Both the position numbers and the translations under genes were made by a program. This document shows positions 926 to 27,960 of a DNA stretch of 64,000 bases, piece by piece (the stretch's first letter is position 1; each line of letters starts with the position of its first letter). Location of the stretch: NCBI RefSeq assembly GCF_006345805.1, contig NC_043004.1, positions 43,028,001 to 43,092,000 on the forward strand, in the 5' to 3' direction. The notes beneath the pieces are model-generated. The model was given only the letters and a program-made list of their open reading frames with translations, made no database searches and was not told the origin of the DNA. This DNA is from Octopus sinensis (Eukaryota).

Positions 926-2744
926 TTTCCCCCTAGGAGTTCATTACTTGTCTGGACTCAGTCATTCTATCTTCCGATTTCTCGTCAGTGATCATGTTGT
1001 GTCCGATAATTACCAGTGTGAAGCGAGGATAACCTTTCAGAACATGTGGTATCTATGCACCGAGATTTTGGAATTTAGCCATTCAGAGAGATCGAAAGGT
1101 GGCGGTACCATGAGGGCGTCCCATCTAACCCTTCAATTGATCTTGTCGTCTGGAATGTAGAGACTCTGTAAGGATTAATCCCTCTTCCATACAGTGTAAA
1201 ATTATTTACGTGCAGCTCTTCCAGTAACCGCGACCTTGTTCTACACTGTATAGATGTTTCGAGCGGCTTTGATAACTTTGGTAGTTTTGGAACTCTGAAT
1301 CAAATGGCAGCAAAGCAAATGTTTCAAATTTCCATTTGTTTCTACTCAGTACACATTTGCAATACGTAAAACAAAACTTGGACTGAAAATATAGAACTAC
1401 AGAAAACTATAAAAGACTGCAAGGAATATATTTAATTCAATGCAAATGATATGTTTCGAGATGGACAAAGTTCGTGTTGTAAGCAGGAAAAATGGAATGT
1501 ACTTTTCGAACCCTGAATAACAGAAAATATCGACTGGTTATGATTGAGCTGTCCAAATACGAAAATGCCAAAAAATGTTATGCTGCAATAAAGTTAGTTG
1601 TCTATGTAATGCAAAAGTGATAACATGGCAGGAGAAAATTATTAGCTTGTTTAATAAAAATAAAGCTGTTTTCTTCTGGTTATACATTAATAATATATGG
1701 GCAGTATACCTTCGAAGTATAAAGCAAACTTAAAGACGTAAACAAAATTTCATTAATAAAATCTTCGCAAAAAATCACAAAACAACCTTGCTTCCAAACT
1801 TTATGAGATGTTAAGATTGTTTTTTCTTAGATTCATCGGAGAAGATATTTGAATGATCAGTTATAAGAAAATAACCCTGAAAATTATAAGATGTAAATAT
1901 ATGATAAAAAATGAATGTTAATATATTCTTTGATCAATGCTTTTCATAAAATTAAACGGTAGAGATATGGAAACAGAAAATGTCATGGTAGGTATATATT
2001 AAATAAAAACTCGATAAGAAATATTACTTCCGAATTCTTGATATTCATTATAAAAAGAAAAAAAAATCATCGCAAATGTTCATGATGTATTTCGTTGGAA
2101 ATCTATTTTTTTTGCTTATGTATTTGATCAGCAAAAACCTAGCCTTATATCATTTTCTTTTGTAGTGCTTCCTATAAAACTAAATCCATCGCATTAAATA
2201 TTCTGTTTGAAGATTATTGCTGTATTTTACCTTCCTTATATTTATATGTTCTACTTACTACCTATCTCTCTTAAATTCACCCGATTTTTATCTACGCATT
2301 TTATTCCCCATATATTTAATAGGATCAGTTACATATGTTTTATTGCTATCGGATAATCAAGTGCACCAATTATTATCACTAAAAGTAGGAAAACGTAGTT
2401 ATGATTTTCTCACGTCCAATTAATAGAGTTTTTGCAGAGTATATATGGAAAGATTGCACTCGTCTAATTAATGGTACATATATCAATAAGAAAGAATCTA
2501 TGGTGTAACGGCGGCAAAAAGTGTTATAAGAAGGCCAGGTTTCGTGAAAATTCTGCATTCTGCACTACGATAAACTTGACATGAACAGCAAAGCCACATT
2601 GTCAATTATTATTTTTGTCAGATAACATTCTAGTGATAAAAACAAAGCTCAGCCATAGAATAAACTCAATGTTTATAGACTACCATATAGGCCTTACTTC
2701 GGATTAGCATTAATCCAAATAAGGTGGTGATCTGTTATAATTGT

Positions 2745-2932
2745 TAGCTCACCGGACAAAATGCTTGGCGGCATTTCGTCGTGTACGTTCTGAGTTCAAA
2801 TTCCGCCGAGGTCGCCTTTCCTTTTAATCCTTTCAAGGTCGATTAAATAAATACTAGCAGAATACTGACGTCGATGTAATCGAATTACCCTCCCCGAATT
2901 TCCTAGACTTGTGCCAAAATTTGAGACCAATA
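2745..2932 (+). mobile_element. tRNA-derived SINE, 5'-truncated
   Basis: B-box-like gagttcaaattcc; body aligns by eye to 40877-41094. Confidence 0.7.
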
Positions 2933-3371
2933 TCAGTACAAATACTTATTACAACACCATTTTTCTAATAAGAAATATCACCTAAGCTATTAAAGAGGAG
3001 CAAATATGAAATATCTATAATGTTTGGCATGCTCGAATTCATGCAGCTGTGTTGTTATGCATAAACCACCATTTTGTTTTGTATTGCAGATTGGGTTATA
3101 TATTTGCGAGGCGATATTTGCCTGTTGACTGTTCTGGAATGAGTGAGATCGATTGAATCTACCTTCAATGTTCTTTTTGAGATCAACCAGTAATTAGTAT
3201 ACTGTAGCAAGATGGATTGAATGCTTTTCTTCCATGAAAGAACAAAGCATTTACTATCCTAAGCAATGCGGTGATATGAGATGTTATCGCTATCGAATTC
3301 ACTGAGACTGCAACCCCTTCAGCTTGAAGGACAGTATACTATATATATATATATTTATATATATATATATA

Positions 3372-3664
3372 TTAGAAGAAATGAGGTAATCAGAAGATCG
3401 GATGGTTCATATTTATAGATATTTATATATTACATTTTTTACATATATATATCATATCATTCAGATCATATCATTCAGATTATTAGCGCTTTCTCCCATT
3501 CTAGTGGGGATTTCAAATCAAAATATTTTTTTTTTTTGATTTGAAAACCCCACTAGAATGGGAGAAAGCGCTAATAATCTGAATATGATGTAAAAAATGT
3601 AATATATAAATAAATATCTATAAATATGAACCATCTGATCTTCTGATTACCTCATTTCTTCTAA
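3372..3664. mobile_element. Fold-back PLE-derived mini-element in (TA)n
   Basis: ttagaagaaatgaggtaatcagaagatc is reverse-complemented at 3637-3664; T-rich centre; HHR-like motif in each arm. Confidence 0.8.
3535..3580 (+). ncRNA. HHR-like motif, U3-A8 core
   Basis: tgat TTGAAAA cccca ctagaa tggga GAAA gcgc TA; palindromic stem III AGCGCU; weak stem I. Antisense copy at ~3481-3525. Confidence 0.5.
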
Positions 3665-3695
3665 TATATAATACCTGTACATCATCTCCAAACCT

Positions 3696-3796
<101 letters not shown>

Positions 3797-3927
3797 TATA
3801 TACATGTATATATATGTATGTGTGTATGTGTGTGCGTGCGTGTGTGTGTACATATATATGTGTGTGCGCCTCTGTGTGTGTATGTACATACATACATACA
3901 TATATGTATATATATATATATATATAC

Positions 3928-4149
3928 TACGGAGATGTACGTGCATAGCAAGTGATTTGATCTGAGATCGTGTGCTGAAACGAAAACAATTGCAGCGTGG
4001 GAGGTGTTTGTAAGCCATTTAAGAAACACACAAAAGCCGTTCGATTCACTTCAACAGTTAAGTTTAATTCGTCAAAACATTATTTTCGTCGTTTAAGACC
4101 CCGACCTGTTCACTGACAAAAATCCGTGATGCAGCACGGATTTTTGTCA

Positions 4150-4150
<1 letters not shown>
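3928..4150 (-). mobile_element. PLE-derived mini-element, same family as 49565-49907
   Basis: Near-identical to 49565-49780; ends in the hairpin ctgacaaaaatccgtg-atgcag-cacggatttttgtcag. Confidence 0.8.
4068..4120 (-). ncRNA. HHR motif, G3-C8 core (diverged copy)
   Basis: Minus strand: tttgtca GTGAACA g gtcgg ggtcttaa acgac GAAA ataatgt TT tgacgaa. Confidence 0.6.
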
Positions 4151-4184
<34 letters not shown>

Positions 4185-5476
4185 TTTTTTTTTCTTCTTT
4201 CAAATGTGCTTCCATTTCTTGCCGAGTGTCTTCCCGACTCCTAGGGCAAAGAAACTCATAGTATACATTGGTAGGCCATTAAACCAAACTCAGTAGTTAG
4301 TTAATTTTTTTTTTTTTTAAGTTAAATTAAAATACATGAGCAGCAACAGTTCTCACATCGACAATGCTCTTCTCAATACGTGTGATGTACCAGTTAAGAC
4401 AATCTTTTGCACTTCTTGCAGGGATGGTAAGCCAGGGATCATTCTCATATAATTTTCGGTTCCCTTCTTGATCATTCCTAGTGCTCCTACGATCACTGGT
4501 ATTGTAACCGCCTTGAGATGCCACATTTTCTCAATTTCAATGAGTATGTCTTTCTATTTTCTGAGCTTTTCAAACTCTTTCGCTGAGATATTATGATCAC
4601 AGGGGATGCTCATGTCGATCAATAAGCAAACTTTATTGTTTTGGTCTTTCACAACAATATCTGGTTTATTGGCCTTGATGGTTCGGTCTGTATGTACTGG
4701 AAAGTCCCACAGAATGGTTACATTTTCTCCTTCAGTTACAGCCTCAGGGTGGTGATTATACCACTTGTCGGCAGTTTTGATATTGTAATGCCGACTTATT
4801 AGCCAGTGGAGATATTGGCCAACTCTGTCATGTCTTAATTTATACTCCACTGGTGCTAAGACTTTACATCCAGAGATTAGGTGGTCTACTGTTTCAATCA
4901 TGTTGCAGAATCGGCATTTTGGGTGTGCTCCATTTTTGATCACATTGGCCTGGTAGTTCCGAGTTAATAGGCTTTGATCTTGAGCAGCCAGGATGAAACC
5001 TTCGCTCTCTGCTTTTAGCCCTGAGCTCCGTAGCCACTGATAGGTTTGCTTCTGGTCAACATCAGCTTGTTTGCTGCGGGTCACATATTTGCCGTGCAGA
5101 GGTTTCTCCTCCCACCTATCAGCCAATTGCTCGTGCGCTTTTTTCATTGCCATCATTTTCACCTTCTTTGCAACAATAGTTGCCGTACTTCCCTCGGGTT
5201 GTTCAGTTTGGGTATCCTGCACGAGATCAATAGCAAATTTTTTGCTTTCCTTTATGATAGAATGAAGCTTCTTTCGTCTCTCGTGATTTTCCACGAGCTT
5301 TAGCATCCAGTCATTCGATATTTCGAGATATATGGCCAGTCCAATTGTGGTTGTTTTGTAAGCTAGTTCAAATTGGATCAGGCCTCGACCTCCTTGGGCT
5401 CTGGGAAGGTAAAGGCGATATACGTCTGCCTTTGGGTGGTGCATCCTATTACAATTCAGCAGCTTGCGTATTTTTC

Positions 5477-5541
<65 letters not shown>
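4151..5541 (-). mobile_element. 5'-truncated R4/Dong-like non-LTR retrotransposon flanked by (TAA)n
   Basis: RT C-terminus, CCHC knuckle, restriction-like endonuclease and 3'UTR; (TTA)n at 4151-4182 and 5478-5541. Confidence 0.85.
4353..5444 (-). pseudogene. RT thumb, CCHC zinc knuckle and RLE endonuclease, interrupted at ~4554
   Basis: LYLPRAQGGRGL; CRFCNMIETVDHLISGC; RHD; KPDIVV..LIDMSIP..EKLRK. After the stop the homology continues KDILIEIEKMWHLKAVTIPVIVGALG..VLRRALSM*. Confidence 0.9.
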
Positions 5542-5542
<1 letters not shown>

Positions 5543-5664
5543 CAGTTGGGGTACGTAGCCCGCACTCATAACCACTACGTCAAATGTAAATATATATATA
5601 TTATATATATATATATATAAAATATATTATGACGGAATTATATTCCAAACTTACAAGGAAAAGT

Positions 5665-5796
5665 TCAATAATGAAAAATTAAATTATACCATTTAGAATA
5701 ATTATATCTAATAGAAAGATTAAATATGATAGAGCATATAAAACATATGATAATGATTAAGTAACGGGAAAAATGATAAATAAAACGTATATATAC

Positions 5797-5854
<58 letters not shown>

Positions 5855-5973
5855 AACGTTTTATTTATTATTGTGCACGTTACTTAATCATTGTTATATG
5901 TTTTATCGTATATTTAATGTTTCTATAAGATGTAATTTTTCTAAATACTATAATTTAATTATTCATTATTGAA
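5665..5973. repeat. Imperfect inverted repeat around a (TA)n centre
   Basis: aaaacatatgataatgattaagtaacg..ataaataaaacgt versus acgttttatttatt..cgttacttaatcattgttatatgtttt. Confidence 0.7.
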
Positions 5974-5998
5974 TTGATAAATGGTATTTTATCCTATT

Positions 5999-6091
<93 letters not shown>

Positions 6092-6130
6092 CATACATAC
6101 ATTTATATTTATATTTATATTTATATTCCC

Positions 6131-6174
6131 ATGTCTGATAAGCCAAGTCGGTTCCCTTGAGGAAACTATGACAT
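6131..6174 (+). ncRNA. Degenerate HHR relic
   Basis: atgt CTGATAA gccaag tcggttcc cttgag GAAA cta TG acat; stem I atgt/acat is intact, core is mutated. Confidence 0.4.
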
Positions 6175-6479
6175 CTTTTAAGTGTGATGAGTGTTTTTTT
6201 TTCGTTTTCATTTCCCTTCTATCTTTCTTTCGTTAGACATTTCCTTTCGTTGTGTCTTGGGCCTATAGTGGAACGTGGAGTACGTGTTAGAATATATCCT
6301 TGGGCTACTTTACGTATACATTGTATATTTTATCGGTACATGTGAATCTTTGCTGAACGCGAAGGACAAATCCATATTTACTTTAGGCAATACGCGTGTG
6401 TAAATTGATCTTATTCGTTTCTGAAAACTTTATATTCAGCAAACTATTTATCATCATATTCTATTGTCTGCTGCACTCC

Positions 6480-7040
6480 TTGTGCCAGAAGCTCAATTTC
6501 GCTCTTATTACGTTTGACTCGCTTAGAGTAAAAAAACGTCTTGCACGCATTTTCAGTTTCGTTCCCATTGTTTAACCCCTCTCCCTACAGCAAATGTGCC
6601 ATGGCCCGGAAACTGTGGTAATGTTACGGTGCAAAATCTGGCAGGGTGAGGTAACACTTCCAGCCCCTCATGCTCCTCAAATTTGTGCTTTATCCCATTG
6701 GCATTGTCTCCTGGGCTATTGTCCTGCTGCAGAAGTGCGAGCTGATAGAGGTGTCGACTGAGAGTGGTTTGTGAAGGTCCAAGATGTGCCTACAGAATAT
6801 GAGTGATTGTGCTTGTCTGGTCAACTATTTCAAACATAGATCATCACAACACATTCTGTCCCTGACCTAGGCTCATCTTCAAGGCTGGTGACACCTTCAG
6901 TGAAACCAATTATGTGCCACATGTTATTTGACACTTCCTGGACCTTCCTAATTATATATATATTTTGCTGCTGCCCTTGAACAAAATACTTTCTGTCCAC
7001 ATGAAGCTTAAAATGACTCAGATTGAACATTTTTCAAAAC
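6480..7040 (-). pseudogene. mariner transposase relic
   Basis: GVTSLEDEPRSG; LLQQDN; GLEVLPHP (cf. WEVLPHPPYSPDL). Confidence 0.55.
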
Positions 7041-7807
7041 TCATTGTTAAATTTGTAAAATAAAGAATAAATTATTAATGCTTATGCTTCATAACAAAAT
7101 AAAATAACAGGCTAAATTGCCAGGATAGGCCATTGCATCAATAAAGGTAACATCGAATCAAATGCTTTTGTTCGACAATGCATCACGGCCATAAGCAATA
7201 TCACCAATACTGAGAAGCAAGTAGAGGAGTGGCTAATGAGGATTAAAACATTAAGATATGTAAAATGCTTACAGCCATTAGAATGCGAGAAAAAGAGTGA
7301 AAGGTGGCTGTGTGCTGGATGATATAGGTAATGGACAGAGAGCAAGTAATGCAAGAAATGTAGACGACCCCAAAAATATACAATGCCTAACGCTAAGCTA
7401 CTTACCACATTCACCGAACATGGCTGTAATCACTGACCGTCAGACCAATCATTTATCTAATTATGTTATTTACCATACAATAAACTATGTTTCACCATCA
7501 ACATTGAGTAGACCTACTCAAAATGGCTTATGCCAGTGTCATATGTTAGTCTATAAATTATTACATTCTTATTAGGCATCTTACCTTTTTTTGAAAAGGT
7601 CGTAAGCCAAAGTAAATTCACAGCTTGAAAATACAAATACAGACTTTACGTAATTTAATTTACCTTGAAATCTTGCAGCAATTTGGAATTATGTACTGTA
7701 GGACGCACGTTATCCTTTTTATCCATAGTATAATACATGACAATCGTTGACATTGCTTCACAAAACATAGTACATTTTTAAAGCATGTTAGCACCAATAT
7801 TTTAACA

Positions 7808-11296: not shown

Positions 11297-12406
11297 TCAT
11301 GTAAAGAGTTCAGGCCACTTGAGGTCAAGGGAGGCTTTGAACAAAGCGGTCGTCGGCATCTTCACCATCTCGTCTGGCAGCTTGTTCCACGGATCCGCAA
11401 CCCGGACGGAGAAAGCTCCTCTCCTTCGATTGAGATGAAATCGTCGCAGGTAGAGCTTTTCGGAATGACCCCGCAGCCGACGCTCTGGAGCAGGAGTGAA
11501 GAACAGCTCTTTCGAGAGGTTACACTTTCCGCTTATGATGTTGTGGGCGAGAATGAGATCACCACGGCGGCGGCGTTTTTCAAGAGAATAAAGGTCGAGC
11601 GTCCTTAGCCTTTCTTCATAGGACAAATTTTTGAGACCATGAACCATGCGGGTAGCCAGCTTCTGGACTCTTTCGAGATGCTGTATGTCTTTGAGGAGAT
11701 AAGTAGAAGAGGCTTGAATCCCGTACTCTAATAGGGGTCTCACCAGCGTGACATAGAGTGGTAGGAATATGGCTGCTGTGAGCATTCCGAATGACCGTCG
11801 AATCAAGAACAGAATTCCGCGTGCTTTGTTGGCAGCATGGACGCACTGGGCCGAAGGCGAAAAGGAGGAATCCACCAAGATACCCAGATACAGCATCACT
11901 ATCATCGAGGATGCGCGTCACCAATTCTTCCATTACCAGTACGTTGGTCAAGCATGATCTCTTCGGCAGAAGCCGTGTTGGGAATCAGAGATAGAGGCTG
12001 TGTTTTGGAGGTGGAGCATCATACTTTTCTTAAGGATGGTTTCGAACATCTTGCTGATTATTGATGTAAGGGAAACCGGTCGGTAGTAAAGCGGGTCTTC
12101 GCGGCTCCCTTTCTTGAAAATTGGGCAGATTATCGCTGTTTTCCAGTCCGAAGGTATAACACCCGTCGCCAATGGCATATTGAATAGACGTGTTAAGGGC
12201 TCGCAGATGACCGGAGCCAACGCTTTGATAACTCGTGGGTGTATGCCGTCAGAGCCGTGACCCTTGTTGACATCGAGGCCTTGAATAACACGTTTGACTT
12301 CGTCCCGCGTGATGACCAATCGAAGCATTGGAGGTACCGATCTATCAAATGGAGGGGGTTCACGACCATCATCTTGTTTGAAAATAGTTGAAAAAGCCTC
12401 GGCAAA
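11297..12406 (-). pseudogene. LINE ORF2 RT remnant, frameshifted, catalytic core deleted
   Basis: GSDGIHPRVIK, PIFKKGSR..YRPVSLTS, QHGF, LTNVL..ILDDSDAV joined directly to LGILVD..LVRPLLEY..LERVQ..RRRRGDLI; no KAFD, PQGS or ADD motifs. Confidence 0.9.
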
Positions 12407-13699
12407 TTATTGGCTCTGTTGATAAGGGTCCTCAATCGATACGCCTGTTGAGTCTACCAACGTTGCAATCTGGTTGTTCAAGCGGGAATTCCGTTGGACA
12501 TGGGCAAAGAAGGTTTTTGGATTGCTACTGGCATTTGCCGCGATTTTGTATTCATAACTGAAGCGCTCTTCCTTTTCAATTTTCACGGCTCGGTCTCGTT
12601 GAGTTTTGTACACCTCAAAAGCTGCAGTCGAATCCAGATTTTTGAATTCAGCCCAAGCAATATCTCTGAGTCGACGTTCTCGTTTAACCTTCTTCGTCAC
12701 CCAGGGCTTGTGTTTCTTCTTGGGAAGCCCAACGGGAACTGCCTGGTCAGTCAACCAGATTACATATGCTTCGAGGGATGACCATAGTTCGTCAACTGAG
12801 GACAACGTCATCAGGGATCGCCAGTCCAGAAGCGCGGAAGCCTCGGTTAGAATTTCAAGATTAATTGCAGAGAAGACTCTACGTGGCAGCGAAGTAGTCG
12901 TGGGCGTACAAAAAGTTGTGTGCATGACGAACTTCAGGACCGCATGATCACTCTTGGCAAGAGGGGCGCACACAGATACGTCTGACACTGATCTTGGATA
13001 GCGGGAGAATACCAGATCCAGCATAGATGGCTGCTGCCCAGACCGATGCCTTGTCGGATATTCAACATGTTGCGATAGAAAACAATCTTCAGCCACGTCA
13101 AGAAGGGCCTGGCCGAACCGGGAAGATGTTGTACAAATTGATGCGGGCCAATCGATCGTGGGAGCGTTGAAGTCTCCTAGTACCAAACAGTCATGCGAAG
13201 CTGAAACGAATCTTATCGCTTCGAGTAAATGAACATCGTCCTGGGGGTCGGCAAGAGGCGGCCTGTAGACAGCTAACACGGGCAGGCAAAACTCGGATAG
13301 GCTCAGCTTGCAATAGACGGCATCGAATTTTGTTGTAGGTTGGGCATTAGTGGGTAGAATACCGCTGGACGGTTTGTGCTCAGACTTAACATACACAGCA
13401 ACACCTCCACCTCGCCTTTTTTCTCTGTCACATCTGAAAAGGACGTAGACCTGCAGGTGGATTTCTGAGTCCTTTACTGCTGGAGTCAGCCAAGTCTCGG
13501 TGATAGCTATCACATCCGGGGAGTCACGTATGGCCAGTGTAAATAGTTCGCTGAACTTTGGAAATAAGGAGCACGAGTTGGTATAGACGATGCTGAGCTG
13601 TGAAGTTTGAGGGGCGGGAGTTGGGGAACAAGCAGAATAAGGGGTATCAGACATAGCATCGTTGACGGGGGTATCAACTTCACTTCGATTTGCCCTCAC
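12407..13699 (-). pseudogene. LINE ORF2 apurinic endonuclease domain and linker, premature stop at 12407
   Basis: YTNSCSL, IAITETWL, GGGVAVY, VYRPP, LGDFNAP, LDLVF, SDHAVL. Confidence 0.92.
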
Positions 13700-14865
13700 T
13701 TCACTTTCCCTGTCAGCACTACAGCATGCGACCAGAGGTAGGACTTGATTATTTGTCCATCTTGGATGCGTAAACCCTTCTCTCCCATCTGTTTCCTCAT
13801 CTTTAGTTCGGATATTAGGTTTCTCCGGCGAATTCTCTCTCTCAGTGAGTATTCCTCGCGAAAAGCCATATTGGGGTCCTCCCAGGCATGCGTCTGAGCT
13901 CTGTTCAGAAAGGCTGAAGCCTCCCGATCGGAAGAAAAGATTACCCTTACTGGGCGTGGTCTAGTATCTGAGGTTGGGTTCGCTTGGAATCTTCCTAGCC
14001 GAGCGACCTTATTGATACTGACATTTTCGTTCACAGAGAACAATTCTCCAACTAAAATGGAAACAAAATTAATGTGTTCCTTTAGGCGGTTTATGCCTGT
14101 ATCACAGGTGGATTCAGCTTTACCATAAATTATTGCTGATCTTGAGTGGGCAAAATGTTCTCTACTATGAGCTGCGGTATTCGATTCTTCATTGGATGAT
14201 TTCGAAAGGGTGGTTTCATAGCCATCAGACTTATGTCGGCCTGTGGGGTCGATCGGAATGGGTTTAGTGGTCATAATTTTCCCGCCTGGTTTGGAACTGA
14301 ACTGCCTCTTCTTCGGTTTGGGGGAGCACCACTCCCCAGATGAACTCACATCGAGATCGTTCAGAATTGGTTGAGCAATGGCATTAATGGGAAGGACAAG
14401 TGAGGGAGAATCCAAACAGATTTTATCGTGATCAGGTTTCATAGCTAAATCTGCCCCCCTGGCGTTTTGACTACGTTTCTTCTTTTGGGGAGAACAACGG
14501 TCTTCAGGTGGGTTTGAGTCTACGCTCCTCAAATTAGGTTGGGGAACCTCCGGGACCGAAAAGGCAGATGAGAAAGAATCCGCACAGGAACGATCATGTG
14601 CAAAAACGACCGCCGGTTCCTTTGCCTTCTTTGGCCGCTTCGATTTTGTTCCCTTCGGTTTGGACGTCTCCAGGGAAGAAATCAAGGGTGACTCTGCGTC
14701 AATAGGAGACTGTTTATTCAGTAAAAGAGCAACAACAGACTTTAGGTGCTCGACCTCTTGTTTGAGCAACAGCAACTGCTCGTTGAGCTGACTATTGGTA
14801 GGACCATCATCTTGATGAGAAGCCCTTCTTGCAGATCTCAGTTTCGATCTGTAGGTAGCTGACAT
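13696..14865 (-). CDS. LINE ORF1 protein (coiled coil and RRM-like domain), 389 aa, open
   Basis: Heptad LNEQLLLLKQEVEHLKSVVALLL; RSAIIYGKAES..VARLGR..RPVRVIFSS..RIRRRNLISELKMR. Confidence 0.8.
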   Translation of the reverse strand: MSATYRSKLRSARRASHQDDGPTNSQLNEQLLLLKQEVEHLKSVVALLLNKQSPIDAESPLISSLETSKPKGTKSKRPKKAKEPAVVFAHDRSCADSFSSAFSVPEVPQPNLRSVDSNPPEDRCSPQKKKRSQNARGADLAMKPDHDKICLDSPSLVLPINAIAQPILNDLDVSSSGEWCSPKPKKRQFSSKPGGKIMTTKPIPIDPTGRHKSDGYETTLSKSSNEESNTAAHSREHFAHSRSAIIYGKAESTCDTGINRLKEHINFVSILVGELFSVNENVSINKVARLGRFQANPTSDTRPRPVRVIFSSDREASAFLNRAQTHAWEDPNMAFREEYSLRERIRRRNLISELKMRKQMGEKGLRIQDGQIIKSYLWSHAVVLTGKVK

Positions 14866-16092
14866 GATAGATGGTTGACTAAAAACAATCTTCTATGGGC
14901 TCTAGGACAAATCTGAGTTAAATCAGGAACAAAAAACAGTTGCAATCCTTGTAGGAGTAGGCAACAGCAGACAAAATCTGAGAGAGTTTGGGCTGAGCCG
15001 AATCACAATCCAAGATTGAAAGCAGACGGTGCAACGAGTCGGGAACCCTTCCTAATTGTCTGAAGCAGCTTTAGGATAAGGGATAGTAGGTCCAACTTTA
15101 GAATATTGATATGCATGTAAAATGTTCCACACGATTAAATATCATTTGACGTGCCATTTAGTACTTCAATAACTGCGTCTGCGCATGTTTGTATATGTGT
15201 GAATAATGTGTTTATGTGCGAGAAGGCACATTTTTTTGTCTATCGTTAATTTAGATTATTAATTTTTTCTTTTTTTCTCACGTTTTTCCCTTTAAAGTAT
15301 TTATTTTTAAAGTAATTTATACGTTGGAGGGAGGGCTGAGGGTGTGTTTTTATTGTAAATTCTCCCAACACAGAGAAAGAAAGGGATTTTTCGTTGGCGC
15401 CACCGGTATAATTCAGACACGGGGAAAGACATCTCGGTGTCATCGTCAACTTGTATGTTTCTAATTGTAGCGATAGTAGTAACAGCAGTAAATTCTGATA
15501 GCAGCAGTAGCAATAGTTCATAAAGTGAGATGAAAAACGATCGGTCAAAGAGAGTTCAAATTGTCTGCAATAGTGTTGATGGAACTTGCGAGCAGTGACC
15601 TTGACTTTGAGAAAAATCAAGGAGGGGCCGACTATAAACAGTACTTGTGAATAGAGTCGTGTACGAGCAGAGTGAAACTATAGAGAGTATTGTTTCTTTT
15701 CTTTATTTTTCTTCTTAATCTCCACGTGTTTAATACTGTGATTGCAATAAAAGGTATGTCTGCATATTTCGGGTAGTCAAGAAGAAAATAAAGGTTAGCT
15801 GGTGTTTACGTCCATACTTCTAGCGTGCATTTAATTGTGTTGTTACAATAAAGACATTTTTACATAATCTGATACTCAAGGAAGAGGGGACGGCAAAATG
15901 TTCACACAAAAAATGGAGATATTTATGATCCTAAAATTTTTGTCCCAAACTGTAGGTTTGGAACTCTTTAACTTATTTTGAGGGAAATTCAAATTACTCA
16001 CAGAAAATAGTAGATCTTCCAGTAATTACAGTTGTTTATCAGTAGTCCTGCTGGGTTGTATATGTTTTACTGTGTCTTCTGTGTCTATATAC

Positions 16093-21943: not shown

Positions 21944-23568
21944 CATATGTTTGTTTGCGTGTATGTGTGTGTGTATATAGAAGTGTCAATGTTCAAAATT
22001 CAAACTCTTATTCAATGTGAATTTCCTCCCAAAAGTTTCATTTATTTGTAATATATAAAAGTACGATAGCAGAATAATTGATATAATGAATTCTAAGATA
22101 TATAGTGTTTACAGGCTGTGTATTTTAATACACTAAACTTTTACACGTATTTGAATGAAACTATAAGATTTAAATTAACAAATAATTCTTTCCACGGAAA
22201 AGACGGGAACTGCAATATGTAGAGCAAATGAAAAAAGAAATAATAAAGTTGTGCGTTATGAGACTGATTTAGCATTAACCTAGTCTCTGACATACGCTAA
22301 TGTACTGCGTGTATCAAGATGCTAGTGAATGGATAATTGTGGAGATGCATGTCCTGTACATTGTGGAAAGAAATGACGTTTTCTAAGCGTCGTTTTAGAG
22401 CGTTTCTCGTACCCAGATCTAGTGTGTGACAAAATGAGAAAAATATCGAAAAACGAGTTGCAATAGCACGATACTAAACTATGAAATCTGAGAGGATAAG
22501 ATTAGATTCCTATCAGCGTTGAGTGCACACAATTAAACGTCTGAAAAACAGGTTCTTATAGGTTTTCATAGTAAGCATAAGATATAACCGATACTTGATT
22601 TAATTGATTTAATTGGAAATTTCGTATTTGTTATTTACTTAGGAGATGCTGTAAGTTATAATTGCGTAACCCAATCAAAGAAAAAAATTAAAACTCAGTA
22701 TTATATAAAAATCTATATCTGAGGAAGATTATGAGGGTGATGGATGTTAAAATGTAGACGCATTATTTATTAACTCAAAATCCTACGATGTGAGAAGCGT
22801 GAGTAGGAATCGAATTAAATTCGGTGTATGCATATATATGTATACACCAAGAACAGTACAGAAACACACTGAAAGGTATTGCTCCAGCATCGACCTAACC
22901 TTTTGCTGAAACCGGTGGACGATAAAATATAAAAGATATCAAACATATCGTGGACGATATGTGAAGAGGATTTCAACGTGATTTATTTTTGAATTCTAAA
23001 AATTGTTTTCAAACGAAGCTTTTAATGTTACCATTTGTGCAAGCTACAAGCTACGTAACATGATAATAGTTCCTTTTTAACCGAGCTACATGACATTAGA
23101 ATCTTTGATGGAAAAAATTATAGTTGTATAACGACCATAGCATTTTATTTGATATGTTTTAAACTTTGAAGAAAATAATATTTTAACCAGCTTGAAATAT
23201 TTTTGCCGCATTAAAACTTTACACCATAACTTTGAGGAAGAATGTAGAGACGGAAGAATGTCGTCTCCAGTAGCTAACTGGAAATTCACTTTTCCGTGAA
23301 CTAAGATCTTCCAGTAGAGATAAAAAAATCAGCTTCTGACAAATATTTGTTTTAGAAATTTATCAAGGTGAGTTTTAGCGCGATGAGAAATAGATTACAA
23401 TGATTCATTAAACTTTTGAAAATCACATATTTCAAAATTTCCGTTTACGAATTTGGAATTTTATTAGTGATCTCGAAATAATCGGTGTAAAGATATCTAT
23501 ATATATATATATAAGAAATTAAAAAAGGAAAATACACACACTTACATAATTTTAATATAATGTTTAAT

Positions 23569-23603
23569 ATATCGACCGGTTTCGCTATCGCTATTCATGA
23601 TAT
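23569..23603 (-). ncRNA. Minimal type-I HHR, A3-U8 core
   Basis: atatc ATGAATA gc gata gc GAAA ccgg TC gatat; 5-bp stem I, 2-bp stem II, ACCGGU stem III, GUC site. Confidence 0.75.
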
Positions 23604-23637
23604 TATGTTTTACTTATTTGAATATATATTCAACATA

Positions 23638-23672
23638 ATATCATGAATAGCGATAGCGAAACCGGTCGTTAT
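23638..23672 (+). ncRNA. Minimal type-I HHR, A3-U8 core (second arm)
   Basis: atatc ATGAATA gcgatagc GAAA ccgg TC gttat. Confidence 0.7.
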
Positions 23673-23739
23673 ATTAAAAATTATATTAAAACAACTCACC
23701 ACGTGAGGATAATCGAAATTCCTCTTTTCTGTTATTACT

Positions 23740-23786
<47 letters not shown>

Positions 23787-25727: not shown

Positions 25728-25766
<39 letters not shown>

Positions 25767-25845
25767 GTGAAAAGGAACACACGAGTTGATATATATGAAA
25801 AAACAAGTCAAAATAGAAAATGCTAAAATAATTTTATAGTGAACA

Positions 25846-25889
25846 TTTCAGTACCGGTTTCGGTCATTTTGAGACCTTTTCAACTGTAA
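25846..25889 (-). ncRNA. Type-I HHR, U3-A8 core, in PLE pLTR
   Basis: ttacag TTGAAAA ggtc tcaaaat gacc GAAA ccgg TA ctgaaa. Confidence 0.8.
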
Positions 25890-26164
25890 CGATTAAATAA
25901 TTAAATTTAGAAAAATTAGAAGAAGAGTTTTTTTAAAGGAATATTTCTATAGTAGTGTTCAGATATAAGTGGCATTCTGCCTTTCTCTGACTCCCTTGTT
26001 TGCACTTGTGTGTTCGAGGTCGTTGTGAGTTCTTGGTAGGGTAGAAGAAGAATGCTGATGAGGGGAGGGGGTGGGAAAATCTGGGAGTGCCCTGATGGTC
26101 GTATTTTGAATGGTCAGTGGCGGCTAGCAGTCGCAGTTCAATTCAGGAGAATATTTCTTTGGCA

Positions 26165-27206
26165 TAAAAATATAGAAAAACTCATAGAATTCCAGGAAGT
26201 GTGAAACGGACTGGACGTAAACATCCAATTCCCGATGGAATATAGCCAGCAACAACTCCCCTTCCTCGATATCCTCATTAAGAAAGCTAATAATATAATA
26301 GAAACAGACATATATTATAAGCCTACAGACTCTAAGCAATACCTTCCATTCAATTCATGCCACCCAGACACACGAGGATGAATATCCCCTTCAATCTAGC
26401 AAAAAGGATATGCACTATATTCTCTAACGCAAACACCAGAGACACACGACTACAAGAACTAAAAGATACCCTTATCACCAGGAACTATCCACCTTCACTT
26501 ATTGACAAGTGCATTCAACGTGCCCTTCAACTTAACATCAAGGAACTGAGACATCCCAAATCAAAGAAAAACTTACAACCAAAAGCCTTACCATACATCT
26601 CCACACACAACCCTCTCAATAACGAAGCCTTCGGCACCATCCTCCACAACATACCCCTCCTAAAAAAAGACCACAGAATGAACACAATCCTCCAAACACA
26701 CACGATGATAAAAAGCAAGAGACAGCCTAAATCCATGAAAAGTCTCCTAACACAAGCCCGAATTCACTCTTCAACTCAGAAGCCGACAGTAAAAAAAATG
26801 TGGAAGACCCAATTGCGGGATATGCGACTATCTAATTGAGGGATCAGAGTTCTCCTTCAAACAGGGACAACGGTTTACAGTGAAAAGCAACTTCACATGT
26901 GCTTCGGAGAACCTAATATACTCACTAACCTGCTCCGGGTGTCAAGAGCAGTACATAGGCCAAACAAAAAATAGTTTGCGTAAACGAATGGCCCTGCACA
27001 GATCCCAGATAAAAATTCCCCAAAACAGAAAAATAGCTTTTAGCCAACACATAGATACTTGCGCCAACAAAAAAACACCAAGCTTCAGGATTTCCCCCCT
27101 CTACCAATTTAGGGACGATACAACCTCGAGACAACGAATAAGTAAAGAAACTCTCTTTATTACAAAATACAGGCCACTTCTTAACGGGTCTACGACAAAC
27201 AATTAA
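26165..27206 (+). pseudogene. PLE RT C-terminus/thumb and GIY-YIG endonuclease, frameshifted
   Basis: IQFPME..LPFLDILI..TDIYYKPTDSKQYLPFNSCHP; NIPFNLAKRICTI; Cys linker KCGRPNCGIC; NLIYSLTCSGCQEQYIGQTKNSLRKRMALHR. Confidence 0.92.
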
Positions 27207-27371
27207 TATACCTCAACTTTAGAATAAAAGAAATATACACACACAAATATTACATTCCAAAGAATCCATTACTAATCACAGCTATAATCACAGCTATAAT
27301 CCATAACATGCCAACTTCAAGTCATACAACACCTCACTACTTTCACCCATTCATATTCTCCCTTCTCTGTT

Positions 27372-27560
27372 TTTTCTTCTTCTTCGTCTTCTTCTTCATC
27401 ATTATCATTATCATCATCATCGTCGTCATCATCATCACCACCATCATCATCATCATCATCATCTTCTCCTTCTCCTTCTTCTTCTTCTTCTTCATCATCA
27501 TCATCAACATCGTCATCTTCTTCTTCTTCTTCTTCTTCTTCTTCTTCTTCTACTTCTCCA
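27372..27560. repeat. (TTC)/(ATC) compound microsatellite in the PLE 3' region
   Basis: Visible directly. Confidence 0.9.
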
Positions 27561-27929
27561 CCTTCTACCTCTTAACTTTGTCACTAATGCTTTTTAGTAT
27601 AACACCTACGCAAATTCCATAAAGAAGCCTTTCAATAGAAATATTCTCCTGAATTGAACTGCGACTGCTAGCCGCCACTGACCATTCAAAATACGACCAT
27701 CAGGGCACTCCCAGATTTTCCCACCCCTCCCCTCATCAGCCTTCTTCTTCTTCTACCCTACCGAGAACTCACAACGACCTCGAACACACAAGTGCAAACA
27801 AGGGAGTCAGAGAAAGGCAGAATACCACTTATATCTGAACACTGCTATAGAAATATTCCTTTAAAAAGGAAACCGGTACTGAAATGTTCACTATAAAATT
27901 ATTTTAGCATTTTCTATTTTGACTTGTTT

Positions 27930-27960
<31 letters not shown>

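What the first reader, a model, noticed from the sequence alone, without database searches (positions are those of the whole stretch)
23569..23672. 35-nt ultra-minimal A3-U8 hammerhead (AUGAAUA)
Seen: atatc-ATGAATA-gc gata gc-GAAA-ccgg-TC-gatat, with 5-bp stem I, 2-bp stem II closed by G10.1-C11.1, ACCGGU stem III and a GUC site. Both arms come from one insertion, so they are not independent evidence. Inference: a very small natural HHR with the rarest 3-8 pair, probably needing dimerisation through the stem III palindrome.
Basis: partly seen in the sequence, partly recalled or inferred. Interest (0 to 1): 0.78.

Follow-up and report, generated by a model that had tools for sequence, protein, structure and literature searches.

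The report
Retrotransposon hammerhead with flipped core pair
A tiny hammerhead-ribozyme motif in the end repeat of a Penelope-like retrotransposon carries an A-U pair where textbooks show C-G, is repeated in many hundreds of genomic copies, and likely cuts its own RNA slowly as a dimer, although this particular truncated, fold-back copy is predicted to be inactive.

Summary
The motif is real. A perfect 35-nt version lies on the minus strand (23569-23603); the plus-strand arm (23638-23672) has a stem-I mismatch. Both arms are the 3' end of one 5'-truncated, inverted Penelope-like element (Neptune-type linker) inserted in (TA)n. A3-U8 is the family state: with the core left free, 85 of the first 100 listed copies read AUGAAUA and none C3-G8; 13 of 13 copies found through the reverse transcriptase are A3-U8. 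Related families carry U3-A8 and G3-C8, one family holds both A3-U8 and G3-C8 (86 versus 8 of 100), stem I covaries, and G17 is avoided. This points to selection for the active hammerhead fold. RNAcofold predicts the dimeric hammerhead as the lowest-energy form of the left arm. Cleavage is untested, and one published mutagenesis found only the G:C swap active. 'Rarest' and 'ultra-minimal' do not hold in this genome. In this copy, read-through RNA would form a 60-bp hairpin. I found no report of a natural A3-U8 hammerhead, but could not read three key papers. Verdict: new variant of a known kind.

The parts
23569..23603 (-). Minimal type I hammerhead motif with A3-U8 core (AUGAAUA), 5-bp stem I, 2-bp stem II with GAUA loop, palindromic ACCGGU and GUC site; predicted cut between 23574 and 23573
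23638..23672 (+). Second copy of the motif; T at 23669 breaks stem-I pair 2; predicted to misfold
23505..23631 (-). Inverted 5'-truncated copy of the element's 3' end (pseudo-LTR), without tail; 96.8% identical over 126 nt to copy L019
23632..23692 (+). Direct 5'-truncated copy of the pseudo-LTR end, followed by an internal deletion of about 45 nt relative to L019
23691..23741 (+). PLE 'tail' extension of about 50 nt; in the near-full copy L154 the same sequence lies between the upstream motif and the ORF start
23494..23513 (.). (TA)n at the left end of the insertion
23743..23769 (.). (TA)n at the right end of the insertion; no target-site duplication can be told apart
23550..23691 (.). 60-bp inverted repeat formed by the two arms; predicted hairpin of -80.9 kcal/mol (z -18.8) that would pair each motif with its antisense copy

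Best explanation
The locus is a 5'-truncated, inverted insertion of a Penelope-like retrotransposon whose end repeat carries a hammerhead motif with an A3-U8 core pair fixed across the family, and in full-length elements that motif likely self-cleaves slowly as a dimer. Shown: the motif lies about 300 nt after the stop codon of an RT + GIY-YIG ORF; a near-full copy has two same-strand motifs flanking the ORF; the 3-8 pair and stem I covary; position 17 avoids G. Inferred: in a transcript running through two pseudo-LTRs, or between two RNAs, the ACCGGU palindromes pair into a 6-bp stem III and the stem-I strands swap. A3-U8 would stand in for C3-G8, because position 8 contributes its 2'-OH as general acid and needs a Watson-Crick partner at 3 to be placed (established mechanism; general acid per PMC6155905 passages). 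The cut after GUC would free a unit-length RNA starting about 140 nt before the ORF's ATG. The window copy is predicted to be inert: its motifs are on opposite strands and would fold back on each other.
For: Family state: core left free, 85 of the first 100 listed (196 in all) AUGAAUA, A3 in 100, U8 in 96, the other 15 single changes, 94 of the first 100 (269 in all), 13 of 13 motif copies in 10 of 12 RT-anchored loci. PLE context: (GIY-YIG PF01541 above cutoff, RVT_1 below). Covariation at 3-8: one family, first 100 of 135: A-U 86, G-C 8, G-U 2, A-C 2, other 2 (Fisher p 1.2e-8 on the 98; copies are related, so perhaps one event), 30 of 32 distinct rows paired (AU 21, GC 6, UA 3). Stem I: 82% paired against 23-54% when slid, several pair types per position; 24 stem-I types among A3-U8 rows, 0 of 10000 shuffles as good. 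Free positions vary (N7, loop II). G17: 51 hits (control 14) against 5747 and 1114 with H17. Tree: A3-U8 in all 19 rows of a ladder of old to young subfamilies. Dimer fold is the cofold minimum for the left arm, -13.3 kcal/mol.
Against: No cleavage data. In a complete double-mutant scan of one type III hammerhead only the G:C swap rescued; other double mutants in the motif had low activity (PMC9901934 passages). PLE minimal hammerheads cleave poorly even as dimers (PMC4209133). In an anole PLE, cleavage was not needed for insertion in vitro and no reads ended at the site (PMC11167929 passages). Short helix II lowers rates to 1e-2 to 1e-3 per min (PMC13725137 passages). The dimeric fold was the minimum for only some copies tested (left arm, L071, L080, L078; not L058, L062, L074, L077 or the right arm). 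No Rfam hammerhead model hits an A3-U8 copy. Most invariant columns of alignment A1 were imposed by the search patterns. No intact full-length A3-U8 ORF was among the 111 of 20248 candidates scored.
Confidence: 0.72

Rival explanations
1. The motif is a hammerhead homologue kept for its fold, not its chemistry: it pairs two element RNAs or presents a site for the element's RT-endonuclease, and cleaves negligibly.
For: Cleavage was dispensable in vitro for an anole PLE; 3-8 swaps other than G:C had low activity in one scan; stem II is 1-2 bp.
Against: A Watson-Crick 3-8 pair through A-U, U-A and G-C states and avoidance of G17 are constraints tied to the cleavage-competent core. G17 impairs minimal hammerheads (PMC3884650, search listing).
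Confidence: 0.18
2. A3-U8 is a decayed, inactive state that spread because the element does not need its ribozyme.
For: No intact full-length A3-U8 ORF among the scored hits, whereas U3-A8 sister families have open frames of about 780 aa.
Against: Two positions changed together, single-change states are rare, the state persisted through successive subfamilies while N7, loop II and stem I changed, and it occurs in two lineages.
Confidence: 0.07
3. The feature is a MITE-like or microRNA-like hairpin, and the hammerhead reading is coincidence.
For: A 60-bp inverted repeat; Rfam miRNA models hit it below their gathering scores (mir-3910, 57 against 95 bits).
Against: The arms are the 3' end of an RT-endonuclease element; most listed copies have no opposite-strand partner nearby; covariation follows the hammerhead structure.
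Confidence: 0.03

Closest known systems
Minimal type I hammerheads of Penelope-like elements (Cervera & de la Pena 2014, PMC4209133), including the Schistosoma U3-A8 variant
   Same: Located in the pseudo-LTRs; short stem I; G10.1-C11.1; palindromic stem III region; predicted dimer; mostly found as truncated solo or inverted copies; covariation at 3-8 already seen as U3-A8.
   Different: A3-U8 core, not reported in the parts I read; stem II of 2 bp instead of the long helix II; no extra nucleotide between A9 and G10.1.
Small dimer-cleaving PLE hammerhead variants (Lunse, Weinberg & Breaker 2017, PMC5785218)
   Same: By its title and the review passage in PMC6765202: short palindromic stem III, PLE association, cleavage as dimers.
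   Different: The paper was not held, so whether its alignments include A3-U8 rows is unknown.
Natural U3-A8 hammerheads (Perreault et al. 2011, PMC3088659)
   Same: [quoted passage not shown]
   Different: The passages read report U3-A8 only.
Neptune-type endonuclease-bearing Penelope-like elements (described in Craig et al. 2021, PMC8557442)
   Same: RT, CX2-5CxxC linker and C-terminal GIY-YIG; partial tandems, inverted 5'-truncated copy, one-sided tail, microsatellite targets.
   Different: The tail here is about 50 nt rather than 30-40; Neptune versus Nematis was not tested on a tree with named references.

Membership tests
Hammerhead ribozyme, type I | U4 G5 A6, A9 and G12 A13 A14 A15.1 core with U16.1-H17 site | tested here: met
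   G17 nearly absent
Hammerhead ribozyme, type I | Watson-Crick pair between positions 3 and 8 | tested here: met
   30 of 32 distinct rows paired, three pair types
Hammerhead ribozyme, type I | Canonical identity C3-G8 (CUGANGA) | tested here: not met
   A3-U8; 0 of 100 listed copies C3-G8. U3-A8 is an accepted natural exception.
Hammerhead ribozyme, type I | Stems I and II around the core, with covariation | tested here: met
   Stem I 82% paired with compensatory types; G10.1-C11.1 32 of 32, imposed by the patterns; second stem-II pair 20 of 32
Hammerhead ribozyme, type I | Stem III | tested here: inconclusive
   Cannot close in a monomer; predicted between two strands for some copies only
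Hammerhead ribozyme, type I | Match to an Rfam hammerhead model | tested here: not met
   No hit on A3-U8 copies; only the U3-A8 motif at 25833-25897 gave HH9, 19.7 bits, E 0.47
Hammerhead ribozyme, type I | Loop I - loop II tertiary contact | not tested
   Not searched for; minimal PLE hammerheads are described as lacking it
Hammerhead ribozyme, type I | Site-specific self-cleavage | not testable with these tools
   Needs an in vitro assay or raw RNA reads
PLE minimal hammerhead (PMC4209133) | Located in the pseudo-LTRs flanking the ORF | tested here: met
   L154 motifs at +3298 and about +7218 flank ORF pieces 3460-6921
PLE minimal hammerhead (PMC4209133) | Palindromic 15-16 region | tested here: met
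   ACCGGU
PLE minimal hammerhead (PMC4209133) | Long helix II and an extra nucleotide between 9 and 10.1 | tested here: not met
   2-bp stem II, no extra nucleotide
Penelope-like element, EN+ (Neptune/Nematis type) | RT followed by C-terminal GIY-YIG | tested here: met
   (635-aa open frame in L119)
Penelope-like element, EN+ (Neptune/Nematis type) | CX2-5CxxC linker and DKG motif | tested here: met
   CGRPNCGTC linker and EADKG seen in translations
Penelope-like element, EN+ (Neptune/Nematis type) | Tandem and inverted insertions, one-sided tail, microsatellite target | tested here: met
Neptune clade specifically | RT tree placement against named reference elements | not tested
   No named references were fetched; the label rests on the linker
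Non-LTR retrozyme | Small non-coding tandem repeats with a canonical type I hammerhead | tested here: not met
   The family encodes RT-EN; same-strand tandems were seen at L051 and L086 but most listed copies are solo or inverted

The most novel reading that the evidence does not exclude
One clade of Penelope-like elements in this animal has cycled its hammerhead through U-A, G-C and A-U core pairs while shrinking stem II to 1-2 bp, and the A3-U8 dimer cleaves usefully in cells, helped by the dimer geometry or by the element's own protein. Thousands of active hammerheads would then be invisible to CUGANGA descriptors and Rfam models, and the consensus should be written as any Watson-Crick 3-8 pair.
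Probability: 0.3. Interest if true: 0.72.

Novelty: new variant of a known kind. Interest (0 to 1): 0.5.

Why it matters
The 3-8 pair places the general-acid ribose of the hammerhead. Natural U3-A8 is known; I found no paper reporting natural A3-U8, and one complete mutagenesis found only the G:C swap active. Here A3-U8 is the fixed state of an estimated 1,000 copies in two element lineages, beside G3-C8 and U3-A8 relatives. That is a ready-made natural series for asking whether PLE hammerheads must cleave at all, which is still open, and how slow a ribozyme can be and still be selected. It also shows that searches built on CUGANGA or Rfam models miss whole families. The window copy itself is ordinary retrotransposon debris.

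Tried and rejected
A loose A3-U8 descriptor with free stem III gave 2939 hits against 2733 control, so no evidence for other stem-III types. Monomer folding does not give the hammerhead fold (z 0.73 and -0.83). MAFFT shifted the 3' strand of the G3-C8 rows and L076 by one column, so stem I was counted in ungapped register; only motifs with the 25-nt spacing were aligned, and L116 was left out because its 5' side is an inversion junction. Metagenome scan for the family motif: 0 hits. Sequencing runs: no RNA holder listed; only contigs could be laid, which cannot show RNA ends. Contigs from 4 of 4 runs under four organism codes cover the motif bins, and positions 3 and 8 are not among the 40 differences shown, but 108 rows were hidden, so this is only a hint of presence in related species. 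The bacterial promoter/terminator scan is not relevant to this host. miRNA and MITE readings rejected. The number of origins of A3-U8 and the direction of change were not resolved: deep branches are weak and no one-clade test or root was used. Papers not held: PMC5785218, PMC1986816 and a 2012 review. Supplement file 1 of PMC4209133 could not be searched, and I read part 1 of 3 of file 2; unseen alignments could hold A3-U8 rows.

Full report
OBSERVATION. The described 35-mer is the minus-strand arm at 23569-23603. The plus-strand arm at 23638-23672 is the same but for T at 23669, which breaks the second pair of stem I. The arms form a 60-bp, 97% inverted repeat. The 24-nt motif occurs twice in the window and never in 100 shuffles. 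No Rfam hammerhead model hits it; only miRNA models do, below their gathering scores. Four further loci, three of them A3-U8, also gave no hammerhead hit.

IT IS A REPEAT FAMILY AND A3-U8 IS ITS STATE. The own genome (2.72 Gb) has 245 exact copies of a 27-mer against 0 for the reversed control. With positions 3, 7 and 8 free there are 269; of the first 100 listed, 94 are A3-U8 and none C3-G8 (hand count). With all seven core positions free there are 196; of the first 100 listed, 85 read AUGAAUA, A3 is in 100, U8 in 96, and the other 15 are scattered single changes (hand count). As a sample not chosen by the motif, I took the 12 best RT matches: 10 retain the end repeat, with 13 motif copies, all A3-U8.

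PARENT ELEMENT. Copies with longer 5' sides carry RT and GIY-YIG pieces. Pfam gives GIY-YIG above cutoff and RVT_1 below it. L119 has a 635-aa open frame with a CGRPNCGTC linker, and in the least degraded copies the motif lies about 300 nt after the stop. By the passages of PMC8557442 the linker marks Neptune or Nematis elements; I did not place the family on a tree with named references. L154 is near full length: an inverted 5'-truncated copy, an upstream pseudo-LTR with a motif at 3298, an ATG at 3460, a broken ORF to about 6921, a downstream pseudo-LTR with a motif near 7218, a tail and (TA)n. Two same-strand motifs thus flank the ORF, and the predicted cut lies about 140 nt before the ATG. 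No intact full-length A3-U8 ORF was among the 111 of 20248 candidates scored.

THE WINDOW COPY. It is an inverted 127-nt piece without tail (23505-23631, 96.8% to L019) joined head to head to a direct piece (23632-23692, deletion of about 45 nt, tail 23691-23741), set in (TA)n. This matches the inverted, one-tailed insertion described for PLEs. Read-through RNA is predicted to fold into one long hairpin, -80.9 kcal/mol, z -18.8, and the two motifs are on opposite strands, so this copy is predicted to be inert.

COMPARATIVE EVIDENCE FOR A HAMMERHEAD. A descriptor with the ACCGGU palindrome finds 5747 motifs without A3 (control 24; mostly U3-A8 in the first 100), 1114 with A3 (control 4; 92 of the first 100 with U8) and 335 with C3 or G3 (control 14; about 35 C3-G8 and 19 G3-C8 in the first 100 by hand count). 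The spacer ranges differ between these patterns, so the totals compare only roughly; about 1,000 A3-U8 copies is an extrapolation. Among A3-U8 motifs, N7 and loop II vary. Stem I covaries: 24 distinct types, 74% Watson-Crick against 52% in shuffles, 0 of 10000 as high. In 32 distinct aligned rows stem I is 82% paired against 23-54% when slid, and the 3-8 pair is AU 21, GC 6, UA 3, unpaired 2. In one family defined by its flanks, the first 100 of 135 copies are A-U 86, G-C 8, G-U 2, A-C 2, A-G 1, U-C 1 (hand count; Fisher p 1.2e-8 on the 98). Copies are related, so this may be one event, but it is a double change with rare intermediates. Families use C, A or U at position 17; G17 gives 51 scattered hits (control 14). 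A tree of 54 natural endonuclease-region stretches (six duplicate loci and short or motif-less loci left out, L050 kept as a distant row) puts the window's lineage in a 19-row group (86/88) that is A3-U8 from old to young subfamilies, and a second group (100/100) with 2 A3-U8 and 6 G3-C8 rows; deeper branches are weak. Most invariant core columns were imposed by the patterns; the tests not imposed are positions 3, 7, 8 and 17, stem I and the RT-anchored sample.

FOLDING. The monomer does not adopt the hammerhead fold. Two left-arm strands have the dimeric hammerhead as cofold minimum, -13.3 kcal/mol, with pair probabilities of 0.44-0.73. The same holds for L071, L080 and L078, but not for the right arm, L058, L062, L074 or L077.

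MECHANISM. Most likely (0.72) the motif is a slow, dimer-dependent ribozyme that trims tandem or read-through element RNA to a unit starting just before the ORF. Location, covariation and the H17 rule are shown; dimerisation and cleavage are inferred. Against fast catalysis: in a complete double-mutant scan of one type III hammerhead only the G:C swap rescued (PMC9901934, passages); PLE minimal hammerheads cleave weakly even as dimers (PMC4209133); cleavage was dispensable for an anole PLE in vitro and no reads ended at the site (PMC11167929, passages); helix II of 1 bp or none gives 1e-2 to 1e-3 per min (PMC13725137, passages). A structural, non-cutting role (0.18) and neutral decay (0.07) are the rivals.

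WHAT IS KNOWN. Minimal dimeric hammerheads in PLE end repeats, including a U3-A8 family, are described in PMC4209133 (parts 1-2 of 4 read; supplement file 2 part 1 of 3 and a search). Natural U3-A8 and 2-bp stems II are in PMC3088659 (passages). Full-text searches for A3-U8 spellings found no paper using them for a hammerhead; a search joining hammerhead, Penelope and my recalled guess at the host gave only PMC8557442. Lunse 2017, Przybilski & Hammann 2007 and a 2012 review were not held and may cover A3-U8; I recall that the 2007 paper tested engineered 3-8 swaps, but no call shows its numbers. Other papers were seen as passages or first parts only and added nothing on A3-U8.

VERDICT. A real feature and a new variant of a known kind. 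The interest lies in the family, not in this dead copy. 'Rarest' and 'ultra-minimal' are overstated for this genome. Interest 0.5.

Noticed in passing
window 25728-27941: A second Penelope-like insertion of a U3-A8 family: inverted 5' copy with an intact motif at 25852-25883 (minus strand), RT-endonuclease pieces at 26157-27203 (plus), and a 3' end repeat whose motif has lost its 5' half near 27868.
   Followed up: partly
L130-L147: A young U3-A8 sister family (about 67% RT identity) with open frames up to 782-796 aa; its motif has an extra A in the GAAA box in most copies.
   Followed up: partly
L095-L097 and the list: A C3-G8 motif family with the same ACCGGU palindrome that often occurs in same-strand tandems about 355 bp apart, retrozyme-like; no link to a PLE ORF was tested.
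   Followed up: no
L100, L102-L104, L112-L114, L031, L036, L049: G3-C8 and U3-A8 families whose stem II is reduced to the single G10.1-C11.1 pair.
   Followed up: partly
L154 about 1993-3284: A mariner-like DNA transposon with terminal inverted repeats (label recalled, not searched) splits the upstream end repeat just before the motif.
   Followed up: no
L051 3118-4346; L086 1212-2029: Same-strand tandem copies of the A3-U8 motif, 544-545 bp and 427 bp apart, which could pair in cis.
   Followed up: partly
window 23539-23544 (minus strand) and family copies: A GTAAGT splice-donor-like hexamer about 30 nt after the predicted cut site in most copies; an intron was not tested.
   Followed up: no
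list; L070: Families with a U3-G8 wobble at the core pair.
   Followed up: no
L142 near position 95 of the oriented locus: A canonical CUGAUGA minimal hammerhead with a different palindrome, from another element.
   Followed up: no
window 11300-14892 (minus) and 4557-5579 (minus): Long open frames that look like non-LTR retrotransposon proteins; not searched.
   Followed up: no
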